This document shows positions 40,325 through 46,971 of a stretch of 64,000 bases of DNA, piece after piece; the first letter of the stretch is position 1; each line of letters begins with the position of its first letter. This DNA comes from Pelagomonas calceolata (taxonomy: Eukaryota): the NCBI GenBank assembly GCA_918797485.1, contig CAKKNE010000001.1:2046001-2110000 (forward strand). Direction: 5' to 3'. A program made the position numbers and the translations under genes. The notes under the pieces were generated by a model. The model was not told the DNA's origin. It saw only the letters and a list, made by a program, of their open reading frames with translations, and made no database searches.

Positions 40325-40348
40325 AAAAAAAAAACATCTTTGCCGGTT

Positions 40349-40427
40349 TTCGAGTGGTCATCAGTTCGATCCTGGTTTCGTCCTTATCTATGGACGAATA
40401 GCTCAGTGGCAGAGCGCTCGATTGCAG
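40349..40427 (+). tRNA. trnC-GCA: Circularly permuted tRNA-Cys(GCA): 3' half 40349-40384, 7-nt spacer, 5' half 40392-40427
   Basis: Acceptor GGACGAA/TTCGTCC (7/7), D arm GCTC/GAGC, anticodon stem CTCGA/TCGAG (5/5), T arm ATCAG-TTCGATC-CTGGT, discriminator U73, T9 terminator at 40430. Confidence 0.9.
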
Positions 40428-40429
40428 GC

Positions 40430-40438
40430 TTTTTTTTT
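40430..40438 (+). terminator. Pol III oligo-T terminator of the permuted tRNA-Cys
   Basis: T9 run starting 3 nt after tRNA position 37. Confidence 0.75.
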
Positions 40439-41008
40439 GCTTTTTTGGACACTACTGGACTAGACTATCATCCTGAACGAGTTTGGCTAACGTACAGTAC
40501 CCTTGGTATGTGACAAGAGCCACCGACGACGACGCCACCGCCGGAAACGCAAAAGAAGGACAGCCAAACCACCACAAACCCAAACAACGAGCTGAAGCCA
40601 GACCCTCGTGAGGTGCAGATTGATGCTACAGAACAAACTGGCCCATAAAAGTTTGGGAAAATGTTGAACCGCCCGCGCGTGTCTCCGACCATATTTCCTA
40701 CAGGTACATCGACGACATCGACGCCCCCAAGGTCGCTCATTTGTTTTGTCAAGTGGGCAAGTAGCTACTGAAAAGAGGCACACGCTACTCTAGAGCTAGA
40801 CACCGCGCATGCTGAATCATGAAATTAGTGTGTTACGGCCGCTAGCCTTGGGCTTTGCGGCGCGATGCGGGCGTGATGCGGGCGCACTGGCACGGATAGA
40901 TCAAGCAATAATTCATAAAATTTGCCGTGTGCCCGCTGCCGCCGACTCCGGCATTTATAGCGGTGTCTCTGATGGCTGTGCCAGCAAGCAGGGCGACCAG
41001 TGCTGCCT

Positions 41009-41995
41009 ATGCCTGACTGGAAAGATCGCTCGAACCCCCAGTTCGGCCGGCGGCGCGCTGTCGCCAGGCGGCAGGGCGCGGTCCGGGTCCGGCCGGGAAG
41101 CGCGTGGCAGCGGGCCCTCGCGGTCGCGCGCGAGCGTCAGCCGCGGCACTTTGCCGAGTGGCAAGCATCGGATGCAGTGTGCCACCGCCGCCGCGCCATC
41201 GACTTCCGCGCGCTCCCGCGGTCGTGCGATCCGCTTTGGGGCGGCGGCGTGCCGCCGATCCGGGCCTGGCGGAAGCGGCGCCAGATCGAGAACGTCCTGG
41301 GGCCGCTCGCAGAGCTGACGGCGCTATTGAAGCGACCGGCGCACATCGTCGACTTCTGTGCCTCGAGCGGCCACGTCGCGCTGCCGGCCGCCGCCGTGCT
41401 GAAGGGCGTCACCGTCGAGATCAACGACCTGCGCGAGCGGCCGATCGACATCGCGCGCGAACGCATCGCCGCGCTGCCCCCGGCCCTGCGCGCTCGTTGC
41501 ACGGCCCGCGTCGGTTCCACGGAGACCCATACTGGGCCCTTCGACATCGGCGTGGCGCTCCACGCCTGCGGCGTGGCGACGGACGTGGTGCTGGAGACCT
41601 GCCTGCGCCGCCGCGCGGCCTTCGTGCTCGTCCCGTGCTGCGTCGGCCGGCTCGCGCAGCGGGCGAACAGAGGGCGGAACGCCCGGTCGAGTCTGCCGAA
41701 GACGGAGGCCTTCGCCGCGTGTTTCGATTTACCCAAGTCGGCGGTCTGGCGCGGGGCCCTCAGCTCGGACGAGGCCAAGGCGCTCGCGCGCGCGGGCGAC
41801 TGCACGGCCCGCGACAAGTTGACGGCGGACGACCGGGAGCGTCGCGCCTGCAAGACGGTGATCGACGGCGACCGCCTCGCGCTCGCCGCGGAGCGCGGCT
41901 ACACGGTCTCGCACTTTTTGATGCGCCCGTTCGGCATCACGCCGAAGAACGATGTTATTGTAGGGTACCCGTCCGAGTGGAGGAGTCCAGTCTGA
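41009..41995 (+). CDS. GSTCD-like class I SAM methyltransferase (Methyltransf_32-like), copy 1
   Basis: IVDFCASSGHV, FDIGVALHACGVATD, VPCCVG and TPKNDVIVG. Confidence 0.8.
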   Translation: MPDWKDRSNPQFGRRRAVARRQGAVRVRPGSAWQRALAVARERQPRHFAEWQASDAVCHRRRAIDFRALPRSCDPLWGGGVPPIRAWRKRRQIENVLGPLAELTALLKRPAHIVDFCASSGHVALPAAAVLKGVTVEINDLRERPIDIARERIAALPPALRARCTARVGSTETHTGPFDIGVALHACGVATDVVLETCLRRRAAFVLVPCCVGRLAQRANRGRNARSSLPKTEAFAACFDLPKSAVWRGALSSDEAKALARAGDCTARDKLTADDRERRACKTVIDGDRLALAAERGYTVSHFLMRPFGITPKNDVIVGYPSEWRSPV

Positions 41996-42076: not shown

Positions 42077-42092
42077 AAAAAAAAAGCAAAAA
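42077..42092 (-). terminator. Pol III oligo-T terminator of tRNA-Asn
   Basis: T5 and T9 runs on the minus strand just 3' of the discriminator. Confidence 0.7.
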
Positions 42093-42097
42093 GAACG

Positions 42098-42251
42098 CTC
42101 TCCGTAGTGGGATTGAACTGTCAGAGAATATATTAAAATTTCTCCACTGAAACGGGTATCTATAGATAGATATCACCCAGATTAACAGTCGTATCCTCTG
42201 TTAGAGACTGATGCTCTACCAACTGAGCTGGTCCGTTGAAGAAAACGGAGA
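42098..42251 (-). tRNA. trnN-GTT: tRNA-Asn(GTT) with four non-canonical introns at 8/9, 30/31, 46/47 and 52/53
   Basis: Exons 42251-42244, 42229-42208, 42189-42174, 42150-42145 and 42118-42098 join to 73 nt TCTCCGTTAGCTCAGTTGGTAGAGCATCAGACTGTTAATCTGGGTGTCAGTGGTTCAATCCCACTACGGAGAG; G73 discriminator; oligo-T runs downstream. Confidence 0.9.
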
Positions 42252-42551
42252 CGTGGTAGACACCGATGCGCCTTAGCCGGGTCATTTAATTTCGCGCCTG
42301 TTCAAGTACTTTTTCAAAAAACCCTTTTTCTTGGATTTGACCCTGCCGGTGCGAGTCAAAATCCCCCAATCTCGATAAGGACCCGCGAAGGGGAACGTAA
42401 AAGATCCATAACAACGCGCCGAGTCAGAATCTAGAACGAAAATCGCCGCCAAAAGCGCTGCACACCACTGAGAGCAGCGTCAGCGCTGCCCCACGCCGCA
42501 GGACACGCGCGCTAGCCGAGCGAGCGAATATCAAGCGGCATCACTACGAAA

Positions 42552-43360: not shown

Positions 43361-43478
43361 CTGTAATTTCACCAACACGCCCCGGGCACGGCGACGACGA
43401 CGCACGCTTCTACGACCGGCTGTAATTTCACCAACACGCCCCGGGCACGGCGACGACGACGCACGCTTCTACGACCGG
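43361..43478. repeat. Perfect 2 x 59-bp tandem duplication
   Basis: Identical unit CTGTAATTTCACCAACACGCCCCGGG...TACGACCGG at 43361 and 43420. Confidence 0.9.
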
Positions 43479-45587: not shown

Positions 45588-46571
45588 TTAAGCTCTACAC
45601 CACTCAGACGGGTACCCAACGATGACGTCGTTCTTCGGCGTGATGCCGAAGGGGCGCATCACGAAGTGCGAGACCGTGTAGCCCCGCTCCGCTGCGAGCG
45701 CGAGGCGGTCGCCGTCGATCACCGTCTTGCAGGCGCGCCGCTCCCGGTCGTCCGCCGTCAACTGGTCGCGGGCCGTGCAGTCGCCCGCGCGCGCGAGCGC
45801 CTTGGCCTCGTCCGAGCTGAGGGCCCCGCGCCAGACCGCCGACTTGGGTAAATCGAAACAAGCGGCGAAGGCCTCCGTCTTCGGCAGGCTCGACCGGGCG
45901 TTCCGCCCTCTGTTCGCCCGCTGCGCGAGCCGGCCGACGCAGCACGGGACGAGCACGAAGGCCGCGCGGCGGCGCAGGCAGGTCTCCAGCACCACGTCCG
46001 TCGCCACGCCGCAGGCGTGGAGCGCCACGCCGATGTCGAAGGGCCCAGTATGGCTCTCCGTGGAACCGACGCGGGCCGTGCAGCGAGCGCGCAGGGCCGG
46101 GGGCAGCGCGGCGATGCGTTCGCGCGCGATGTCGATCGGCCGCTCGCGCAGATCGTTGATCTCGACGGTGACGCCCTTCAGCACGGCGGCGGCCGGCAGC
46201 GCGACGTGGCCGCTCGACGCGCAGAAGTCGACGATGTGCGCCGGTCGCTTCAATAGCGCCGTCAGCTCCGCGAGTGGCCCCAGGACGTTCTCGATCTGGC
46301 GCCGCTTCCGCCAGGCCCGGATCGGCGGCACGCCGCCGCCCCAAAGCGGATCGCACGACCGCGGGAGCGCGCGGAAGTCGATGGCGCGGCGGCGGTGGCA
46401 CACTGCATCCGATGCTTGCCACTCGTCAAAGTGCCGCGGCCGACGCTCGCGCGCGACCGCGAGGGCCCGCTGCCACGCACTTGCCGGCCGGACCCGGACC
46501 GCGCCCTGCCGCCTGGCGACAGCGCGCCGCCGGCCGAACTGGGGGTTCGAGCGATCCTTCCAGTCAGGCAT
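45588..46571 (-). CDS. GSTCD-like methyltransferase, copy 2 (inverted near-identical paralogue)
   Basis: Protein almost identical to the one at 41009-41995. Confidence 0.8.
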   Translation of the reverse strand: MPDWKDRSNPQFGRRRAVARRQGAVRVRPASAWQRALAVARERRPRHFDEWQASDAVCHRRRAIDFRALPRSCDPLWGGGVPPIRAWRKRRQIENVLGPLAELTALLKRPAHIVDFCASSGHVALPAAAVLKGVTVEINDLRERPIDIARERIAALPPALRARCTARVGSTESHTGPFDIGVALHACGVATDVVLETCLRRRAAFVLVPCCVGRLAQRANRGRNARSSLPKTEAFAACFDLPKSAVWRGALSSDEAKALARAGDCTARDQLTADDRERRACKTVIDGDRLALAAERGYTVSHFVMRPFGITPKNDVIVGYPSEWCRA

Positions 46572-46971
46572 AGGCAGCAGTGGTCGCCCTGCTTGCTGGC
46601 ACAGCCGCCCCCAGAGACCGCTATAAATGCCGGCGTCGGCGGCAGCTGGCAGACGGCATATTTATGAGTGATTGATTTGATCTATCAGTACCAGTGCGCG
46701 CCCGAAATCACGCCCTCCCTCCCGCCAAGCCCTCGCAACCGCGCTAGCGGAAGTAAGACACTAGCGGAGCAAAAGCGTCTCGACGTCATAGGTGCCAAGC
46801 CGGCTGCAAGGGTAGTGGTAAGCGCAGTTGCGTGATCAACGGACACCTCCGTGCTGCGACGCTCGACGCTGGTGCGCCAACTTACTGCGCGCGCCTTCAG
46901 TCGGCGATTTTAGCTAGTCTAGTTGGTCAAAGCAAGCAAGCCGCCGCGGCGTGCGCATCGGTGCGCCGGCC

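What the first reader, a model, noticed from the sequence alone, without database searches (positions are those of the whole stretch)
42098..42251. tRNA-Asn(GTT) split by four non-canonical introns, each with bulge-helix-bulge geometry
Seen in the sequence (minus strand): removing 14, 18, 23 and 26 nt (42243-42230, 42207-42190, 42173-42151, 42144-42119) gives an exact 73-nt cloverleaf. It has acceptor TCTCCGT/ACGGAGA, D arm GCTC/GAGC, anticodon loop CTGTTAA, variable loop GTGTC, T arm AGTGG-TTCAATC-CCACT and discriminator G73. Each intron folds with a 4-bp central helix (TCCG/CGGA; CATC/GATA with one mismatch; TGGG/CCCG; TCAG/CTGA) and two 3-nt bulges. Cutting after the second bulge nucleotide, the BHB rule, gives exactly these junctions: 8/9, 30/31, 46/47 and 52/53. 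None is at the canonical 37/38 site, and exon 4 is only 6 nt. Established knowledge: multi-intron BHB tRNAs occur in Thermoproteales archaea and the red alga Cyanidioschyzon merolae. From memory these carry at most three introns, and I know of none in stramenopiles. Inference: this is a functional gene, and splicing must be ordered because neighbouring BHBs share nucleotides.
Basis: partly seen in the sequence, partly recalled or inferred. Interest (0 to 1): 0.96.

Follow-up and report, generated by a model that had tools for sequence, protein, structure and literature searches.

The report
Four-intron tRNA gene in ocean alga
The ocean alga Pelagomonas calceolata carries an asparagine tRNA gene broken by four short inserts that are likely removed as archaeal-style introns, one more than the three I found reported for any tRNA gene, and a likely rearranged tRNA gene close by suggests that standard tools miss part of its tRNA set.

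Summary
Confirmed. The window is Pelagomonas calceolata nuclear DNA. Removing the four inserts gives a 73-nt tRNA-Asn(GTT); the unspliced gene is missed by ARAGORN and Rfam. A blind BHB-driven parse returns this as the only normal-length solution, with 0 of 3043 shuffles giving any. Giant-virus-type contigs hold a tRNA-Asn 2-5 nt from the predicted product. A homolog in two metagenomes shares intron 2 and lacks introns 1, 3 and 4 at exactly these junctions. The gene shows 0 listed substitutions in 154 nt against 21 in 244 flanking nt. Two metatranscriptome contigs match the unspliced gene's extent. No spliced RNA was seen, so splicing is inferred. The motifs are relaxed, not strict BHBs; folding predicts intron 3 before intron 4. 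A likely permuted tRNA-Cys lies 1.7 kb away. Papers read give three introns as the maximum and name no stramenopile case. The scan noted a three-intron viral tRNA on other DNA, but not this gene. Verdict: new variant of a known kind.

The parts
42244..42251 (-). exon 1, tRNA positions 1-8 (5' acceptor strand and U8)
42230..42243 (-). intron 1, 14 nt, at 8/9; central helix 4 of 4, inner helix 1 bp, outer 1 bp
   Evidence: absent in the homolog
42208..42229 (-). exon 2, positions 9-30 (D arm, A box core, 5' anticodon stem)
42190..42207 (-). intron 2, 18 nt, at 30/31; central helix 3 of 4, inner 4 bp, outer 2 bp
   Evidence: shared with the homolog, which differs near the intron loop
42174..42189 (-). 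exon 3, positions 31-46 (anticodon GTT)
42151..42173 (-). intron 3, 23 nt, at 46/47; central helix 4 of 4, inner 6 bp, no outer helix; most stable motif
   Evidence: absent in the homolog
42145..42150 (-). exon 4, positions 47-52 (6 nt, 5' T stem)
   Evidence: viral genes differ here by one change at 50 that is matched by a change at its partner 64
42119..42144 (-). intron 4, 26 nt, at 52/53; central helix 4 of 4, inner 4 bp; holds an internal T4 run
   Evidence: absent in the homolog
42098..42118 (-). exon 5, positions 53-73 (T loop / B box, 3' acceptor strand, discriminator G73; no encoded CCA)
42077..42092 (-). T5 (42092-42088) and T9 (42085-42077) runs, likely RNA polymerase III terminator
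   Evidence: function inferred from established knowledge of Pol III genes
42252..42264 (-). likely 5' leader; two RNA-library contigs end at 42263 and 42264
   Evidence: weak hint only, DNA contigs also break at 42260-42274
40349..40384 (+). companion gene: 3' half (positions 38-73) of a likely circularly permuted tRNA-Cys(GCA)
40392..40427 (+). companion gene: 5' half (positions 1-37) of the likely permuted tRNA-Cys(GCA), after a 7-nt spacer and before a T9 run (40430-40438)

Best explanation
This is a nuclear tRNA-Asn(GTT) gene of Pelagomonas calceolata whose five exons are separated by four short inserts that are likely excised, one after another, by a tRNA splicing endonuclease that reads local bulge-helix shape instead of measuring from the tRNA body. 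Shown: the exon-insert layout, the 73-nt cloverleaf, the central helices at the BHB register, conservation of the whole 154 nt, and homologs that lack single inserts at the same junctions. Inferred: RNA polymerase III transcription from the nearly intact A and B boxes (111 nt apart) through two internal T4 runs to the T5/T9 run; cleavage after the second bulge nucleotide at each junction and ligation; intron 3 first or early, intron 4 only after intron 3, intron 2 probably late; then end trimming, CCA addition and charging with asparagine.
For:: joined exons are tRNA-Asn(gtt), 73 nt; of 68 candidate BHB introns in the region, 4 combinations of up to four give a cloverleaf; all 4 use introns 1, 2 and 4 as stated, and only the stated intron 3 gives a normal 5-nt variable loop; 0 of 3043 shuffles parse; 15 complete tRNA-Asn genes in 16 low-GC loci (3 labelled giant-virus bins; L004 and L016 look like one record; L008 is cut) differ from the predicted product at 2 (4 loci), 3 (8 loci) or 5 (3 loci) positions, all with a two-sided change of T-stem pair 50:64; the search fixed positions 1-40, so the free test is 41-73, where the best match is 31 of 33; a 757-nt contig in run X14 and a 195-nt contig in X6 match exon 2 + intron 2 + exon 3 only; their loose ends run from exon 3 straight into exon 4 and the start of exon 5, and in X14 an 8-nt acceptor strand (6 of 8 like exon 1) abuts exon 2; 21 listed variable sites in 244 flanking nt, none in the 154-nt gene (p 3e-5), none in the 81 intron nt (p 0.003); in 2 of 4 RNA runs the only contig on the 701-nt stretch is the gene itself (42102-42264; 42098-42248); a likely permuted tRNA-Cys 1.7 kb away would need the same kind of enzyme; helix 4 forms with probability 0.00-0.01 in all 4 states holding intron 3 and 0.63-0.88 in all 4 lacking it (37 C).
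Against: No spliced or partly spliced RNA appeared in the 4 RNA contigs that overlap the gene (no joints, no intron-sized gaps); such libraries and 31-letter contigs are poor at showing it, but the step is unseen. Contigs give no strand, and DNA carry-over is not excluded. Outer helices are 0-2 bp; helix 2 never exceeds probability 0.05 in any of its 8 states at either temperature and costs 2.0-8.7 kcal/mol to force. The whole genome was not available, so neither an uninterrupted tRNA-Asn copy nor the endonuclease subunits could be checked. The variation count rests on listed sites only: differences near contig ends are not placed (2 in X6 record 18, 1 in X6 record 20), 42 records were not shown, and runs are not independent haplotypes.
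Confidence: 0.86

Rival explanations
1. Only three inserts are introns; insert 3 is kept, or cut differently, leaving a tRNA-Asn with a long variable arm.
For: Insert 3 folds as a stable hairpin in the variable region; 3 of 4 blind parses cut it elsewhere and leave a longer variable region.
Against: It has the best central and inner helices of the four (4 and 6 bp) and is the cheapest to fold as a BHB in the full precursor (0.4 kcal/mol). The homolog and all 15 complete viral genes, once their own intron is removed, have the 5-nt variable loop.
Confidence: 0.04
2. A dead or dispensable copy: a tRNA gene that collected inserts and is no longer processed, while another gene supplies tRNA-Asn.
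For: No spliced RNA seen; genome not searchable for another copy; a review notes that insertions in eukaryotic tRNA genes usually mark pseudogenes (PMC4090602, passage).
Against: Every stem of the product pairs; no listed substitution across exons or inserts among wild populations; all four inserts carry a helix at the cleavage register; intron 2 is kept in a more distant homolog.
Confidence: 0.05
3. The inserts are removed, but not by BHB reading of a splicing endonuclease: another nuclease or a different geometry does it, and the helices are only partly relevant.
For: Motifs are relaxed; motif 1 has almost no flanking helix and motif 2 is not predicted to form.
Against: 15 of 16 pairs lie at the exact BHB register; relaxed and even helix-less motifs are processed in C. 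merolae (PMC3728597, passages); the viral 43/44 intron keeps a 4 of 4 helix in all 14 loci, with a one-sided G-to-A change in 3.
Confidence: 0.04
4. An assembly artefact or a remnant of an inserted virus, not a host gene.
For: The nearest sequences found are in giant-virus-type contigs; the gene lies in an AT-richer island.
Against: Contigs from four metagenomes span the gene and join it to host flanks; flanks are host genes; the viral genes carry a different intron at a different site, and no viral contig held intron 2.
Confidence: 0.01

Closest known systems
[quoted passage not shown]
   Same: Nuclear tRNA genes with several short introns at non-canonical sites, relaxed BHB motifs, ordered removal, and permuted genes in the same genome.
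   Different: There the maximum is three introns (3 of 27 intronic genes), and the Phe and Ile examples worked out include the 37/38 site; its tRNA-Asn has one intron, at 37/38. Here there are four, none at 37/38, one at 8/9, a 6-nt exon, and the host is a stramenopile. Processing was shown by RT-PCR there and is not shown here.
Multiple-intron tRNA genes of Thermoproteales archaea (PMC4033280 and PMC8450103, passages; PMC4090602)
   Same: BHB-defined introns at many positions, 30/31 among them; cases in which one intron must go before the next motif can form; introns gained at different sites in related genes.
   Different: Stated maximum three introns; archaeal endonuclease types; here a eukaryotic nuclear gene with Pol III-type signals. 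Sites 8/9, 46/47 and 52/53 are not in the list of the passage read, but that list is open-ended.
Non-canonical tRNA introns of Chondrus crispus (PlantRNA 2.0, 10.1101/2021.12.21.473619, whole text) and of the Guillardia theta nucleomorph (PMC4090602, passage)
   Same: Algal tRNA genes dismissed or missed by standard tools because of introns outside 37/38.
   Different: Chondrus: fixed sites 20/21 or 58/59, at most two introns. Guillardia: up to three, some only 3 nt. PlantRNA 2.0 covers two heterokonts and its text reports no such introns for them.
Type II (37/38) permuted tRNA-Cys(GCA) of Ostreococcus and Micromonas (PMC3978253, table passage)
   Same: The companion gene at 40349-40427 has the same isotype, the same junction and a 7-nt spacer, within the reported 1-74 nt.
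   Different: That review lists no stramenopile (0 occurrences of heterokont or stramenopile), and says those green algae have almost no atypical introns.

Membership tests
tRNA-Asn(GTT) gene | exons join to a full cloverleaf with conserved positions, GTT anticodon and G73 | tested here: met
   68-71 of 73 identity to 15 other tRNA-Asn genes
tRNA-Asn(GTT) gene | transcribed as a precursor | tested here: inconclusive
   gene-sized unspliced contigs in 2 metatranscriptomes; no strand, DNA not excluded
tRNA-Asn(GTT) gene | mature tRNA is made and charged | not testable with these tools
   no small-RNA reads among the 24 runs offered; none seen
BHB-type multiple-intron tRNA genes | 4-bp central helix placed so that cuts fall after the second nucleotide of each 3-nt bulge | tested here: met
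   4, 3, 4, 4 of 4 pairs; sliding junctions lose pairs
BHB-type multiple-intron tRNA genes | strict hBHBh' form with both flanking helices | tested here: not met
   inner/outer 1/1, 4/2, 6/0, 4/0 bp; relaxed forms are accepted members in C. merolae, so this lowers only the claim 'strict BHB'
BHB-type multiple-intron tRNA genes | inserts behave as introns: precisely absent in homologs | tested here: met
   introns 1, 3, 4 absent in the homolog; all four absent in the viral genes
BHB-type multiple-intron tRNA genes | excision by a tRNA splicing endonuclease of relaxed specificity | not testable with these tools
   needs the host enzyme; no genome held
BHB-type multiple-intron tRNA genes | ordered removal | tested here: inconclusive
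   folding predicts 3 before 4; no intermediates seen
Canonical eukaryotic 37/38 intron tRNA genes | single intron between 37 and 38 | tested here: not met
   exon 3 carries 31-46 unbroken
Circularly permuted tRNA genes (companion tRNA-Cys) | 3' half upstream of 5' half, halves join to a cloverleaf | tested here: met
   ARAGORN calls the re-ordered halves tRNA-Cys(gca); 7 of 7 acceptor pairs, T at 73
Circularly permuted tRNA genes (companion tRNA-Cys) | BHB-like motif at the termini | tested here: inconclusive
   read: 3 of 4 central pairs, two of them G-U; the predicted fold uses another register

The most novel reading that the evidence does not exclude
Pelagophyte algae hide a large part of their tRNA set as multi-intron and permuted genes, up to a record four introns, processed by a shape-reading splicing endonuclease; their tRNA introns are gained and lost site by site between relatives, and marine giant viruses that carry a nearly identical tRNA-Asn with their own 43/44 intron rely on the same host machinery and exchange tRNA genes with such hosts.
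Probability: 0.5. Interest if true: 0.9.

Novelty: new variant of a known kind. Interest (0 to 1): 0.78.

Why it matters
It would raise the reported limit of introns in one tRNA gene from three to four and extend BHB-type disrupted tRNA genes from archaea, red and green algae and nucleomorphs to the nuclear genome of a stramenopile, in a cultured alga with a chromosome-scale assembly. Both tRNA-like genes found in this 64-kb window are invisible to ARAGORN and Rfam, so tRNA inventories of pelagophytes are probably incomplete. A single 154-nt precursor with four differently shaped motifs and a 6-nt exon is a compact substrate for the open question of how a eukaryotic splicing endonuclease can drop the 37/38 ruler. 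Homologs with different intron sets (host, a relative, giant viruses) make intron gain and loss traceable, and non-canonical introns in viral tRNAs may point to their hosts.

Tried and rejected
No whole genome is held for the window, so no genome-wide search. The JGI metagenome scan did not return the window's own gene although the pattern matches it, so the absence of an intronless host copy there means nothing. The prokaryote genome scan gave 1 hit, a chance match in coding-like DNA. Viral scans for an intron at 30/31 gave 1 chance match and 0 for intron 2 itself; 11 other viral tRNA-Asn-like hits show no insert between the anticodon and the T loop and are more distant; 0 viral hits for the Cys 5' half. 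The best-ranked phage tRNAs are 78-88% identical to the viral tRNA-Asn. A hunt for further cryptic tRNAs in the window by spliced alignment, T-loop and D-arm motifs found only the permuted Cys gene; genes with both loops interrupted could be missed. The Rfam YrlA match at 40330-40447 (33.7 bits, cut-off 69) is read as a by-product of the permuted tRNA shape, not as a Y RNA. The flanking methyltransferase-like gene has an inverted copy at 45595-46606, but the tRNA gene is not duplicated with it. The host range of the viruses was not determined. PMC1852824 was not held; Maruyama 2010 and Sugahara 2008 were not read.

Full report
Source. The window is 57-74% GC in 2-kb steps and holds eukaryotic genes (UTP20, DnaJ, eIF4G, a SNF2 helicase). 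A 283-residue piece of its eIF4G is identical to a record named Pelagomonas calceolata. It is therefore nuclear DNA of this pelagophyte stramenopile. No whole genome was available.

Observation. On the minus strand 42251-42098 splits into exons of 8, 22, 16, 6 and 21 nt and inserts of 14, 18, 23 and 26 nt. The joined exons are called tRNA-Asn(gtt), 73 nt, with all stems paired. ARAGORN finds 0 tRNAs in the window, Rfam 0 matches at gathering score, and no match at this place even up to E 10. Flanking helices are short (inner/outer 1/1, 4/2, 6/0, 4/0 bp), so these are relaxed motifs.

Chance. Two nulls. First, spliced alignment (up to four gaps of 10-40 nt) of an intronless tRNA-Asn from locus L012 scores 70 of 73 here, at most 48 elsewhere in the window, at most 51 in 40 window shuffles and in 1000 local shuffles. 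L012 was found with a pattern from positions 1-40, so only 41-73 are a free test (30 of 33). Second, a parse that uses no outside sequence: among 68 candidate BHB introns, 4 combinations of up to four yield a cloverleaf; all use introns 1, 2 and 4 as stated, and only the stated intron 3 gives a normal variable loop; 0 of 3043 shuffles gave any parse (248 of 3291 skipped for size).

Independent homologs. Scans returned 13 metagenome loci and 3 giant-virus-bin loci; one bin carries the NCLDV capsid, and the metagenome loci are read as the same virus group from their 25-40% GC and a shared tRNA-Ser neighbour in 12 of 13 (inference). Of the 16, 15 hold a complete gene; 14 have one 23-24-nt intron at 43/44 with a 4 of 4 central helix and 1 has none. 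After removal they differ from the predicted product at 2 to 5 positions, always including both partners of T-stem pair 50:64. This confirms the product, including the 6-nt exon. In two DNA metagenomes a contig matches exon 2, intron 2 and exon 3 only (X14, 757 nt; X6, 195 nt; 2 substitutions and 2 gaps, the gaps at the intron loop). Their loose ends lead from exon 3 directly into exon 4 and the first four letters of exon 5, then into unrelated letters, probably another insert near 56/57; in X14 an exon-1-like octamer abuts exon 2 (tables 7 and 8, read by eye). So introns 1, 3 and 4 are cleanly absent in a natural homolog of unknown origin, and intron 2 is shared.

Selection and expression. 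Contigs spanning the whole gene came from all four DNA runs laid and from RNA run X15. Listed substitutions: 21 sites in 244 flanking nt, 0 in the 154-nt gene (Fisher p 3e-5; introns alone 0.003; exons alone 0.006). Caveats: three differences near contig ends are not placed, 42 records were not shown, contigs drop rare variants, and the gaps listed inside the gene belong to the more distant homologs. In the random-primed run X16 and the rRNA-depleted run X18 the only contig on the 701-nt stretch is the unspliced gene (42102-42264 and 42098-42248). This hints at a discrete precursor; strand is unknown and DNA is not excluded. No joint or intron-sized gap appeared in any of the 4 RNA contigs over the gene.

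Mechanism. Established knowledge: tRNA genes are transcribed by Pol III from internal A and B boxes, and BHB introns are cut after the second bulge nucleotide by a splicing endonuclease. Introns 1 and 4 fall at the 5' edges of the two boxes and leave their cores whole, 111 nt apart; T5 and T9 runs follow, and two internal T4 runs must be read through. Because the inserts break the acceptor, anticodon and T stems, an enzyme that measures from the folded tRNA body cannot be used; one that reads local shape is inferred. Folding of all 16 intermediates predicts helix 3 in the full precursor (0.86) and helix 1 (0.76); helix 4 appears only after intron 3 is gone (0.00-0.01 against 0.63-0.88 at 37 C; 0.14-0.93 at 20 C); helix 2 never exceeds 0.05 and is cheapest after introns 3 and 4 are gone. 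Only motifs 3 and 4 share a nucleotide (47). The order 3 then 4, with 2 late, is a prediction; the weakness of motif 2 counts against the simple model.

Surroundings. A motif hunt found a second hidden gene 1.7 kb away on the plus strand: a 3' half at 40349-40384, a 7-nt spacer, a 5' half at 40392-40427 and a T9 run. Re-ordered, it is called tRNA-Cys(gca). It fits type II permutation as tabulated for Ostreococcus and Micromonas (PMC3978253); its terminal helix is weak. Both tRNA-like genes found in the window are thus disrupted, which argues for a system and not one oddity, on a sample of two.

Literature. Passages read give a maximum of three introns: C. merolae (PMC3728597; its one 'four introns' is a count for the T loop), archaea (PMC8450103; PMC4033280), the Guillardia nucleomorph (PMC4090602). 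A 2026 review names red and green algae and nucleomorphs only (PMC13578239, passages); PlantRNA 2.0 (whole text) adds Chondrus. The main text of the P. calceolata genome paper has 0 occurrences of 'tRNA' (PMC9481584); its supplements and the GenBank annotation were not seen and may bear on priority. Ten searches found no four-intron tRNA, no pelagophyte case and no report of BHB introns in giant-virus tRNAs; subscription papers are not covered.

Verdict. Real, most likely functional (0.86), working like the BHB multi-intron genes of C. merolae and Thermoproteales; membership is met on geometry and intron behaviour, untested on the enzyme. New in intron number, lineage and probably position. 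New variant of a known kind; interest 0.78.

Noticed in passing
window 40349-40438 (+): Likely circularly permuted tRNA-Cys(GCA), junction 37/38, missed by ARAGORN; Rfam gives only a sub-threshold YrlA match. I found no report of permuted tRNA genes in stramenopiles.
   Followed up: partly
L001-L016, e.g. L026 1501-1597: Marine giant-virus-type contigs carry tRNA-Asn(GTT) with a 23-24-nt BHB intron at 43/44 (14 of 15 complete genes; L012 lacks it). ARAGORN miscalls these as tRNA-Phe(AAA). Host unknown.
   Followed up: partly
L028, L030, L034, L036, L037 (about 1501-1610 each): Further over-long tRNA genes (90-110 nt) in giant-virus bins G001 and G002; L030 looks like tRNA-Tyr with two introns, one resembling the 43/44 intron. 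Parses not settled.
   Followed up: no
window 42174-42229, run X14 record 11 and run X6 record 19: tRNA-Asn homolog of an unknown organism with intron 2 and a probable different insert near 56/57, but without introns 3 and 4 (and, in X14, without intron 1).
   Followed up: partly
window 42215-42270, run X6 record 21: A more distant contig shares exon 1, intron 1 (one extra letter) and part of exon 2, then diverges; possibly a third intron arrangement.
   Followed up: no
window 40974-41985 and 45595-46606: 1012-nt inverted duplication (97%) of a methyltransferase-like gene (PF13679, weak TRM13 match). One copy lies between the two disrupted tRNA genes; a link to tRNA modification is untested.
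   Followed up: no
window 43361-43478: Exact tandem duplication of 59 nt.
   Followed up: no
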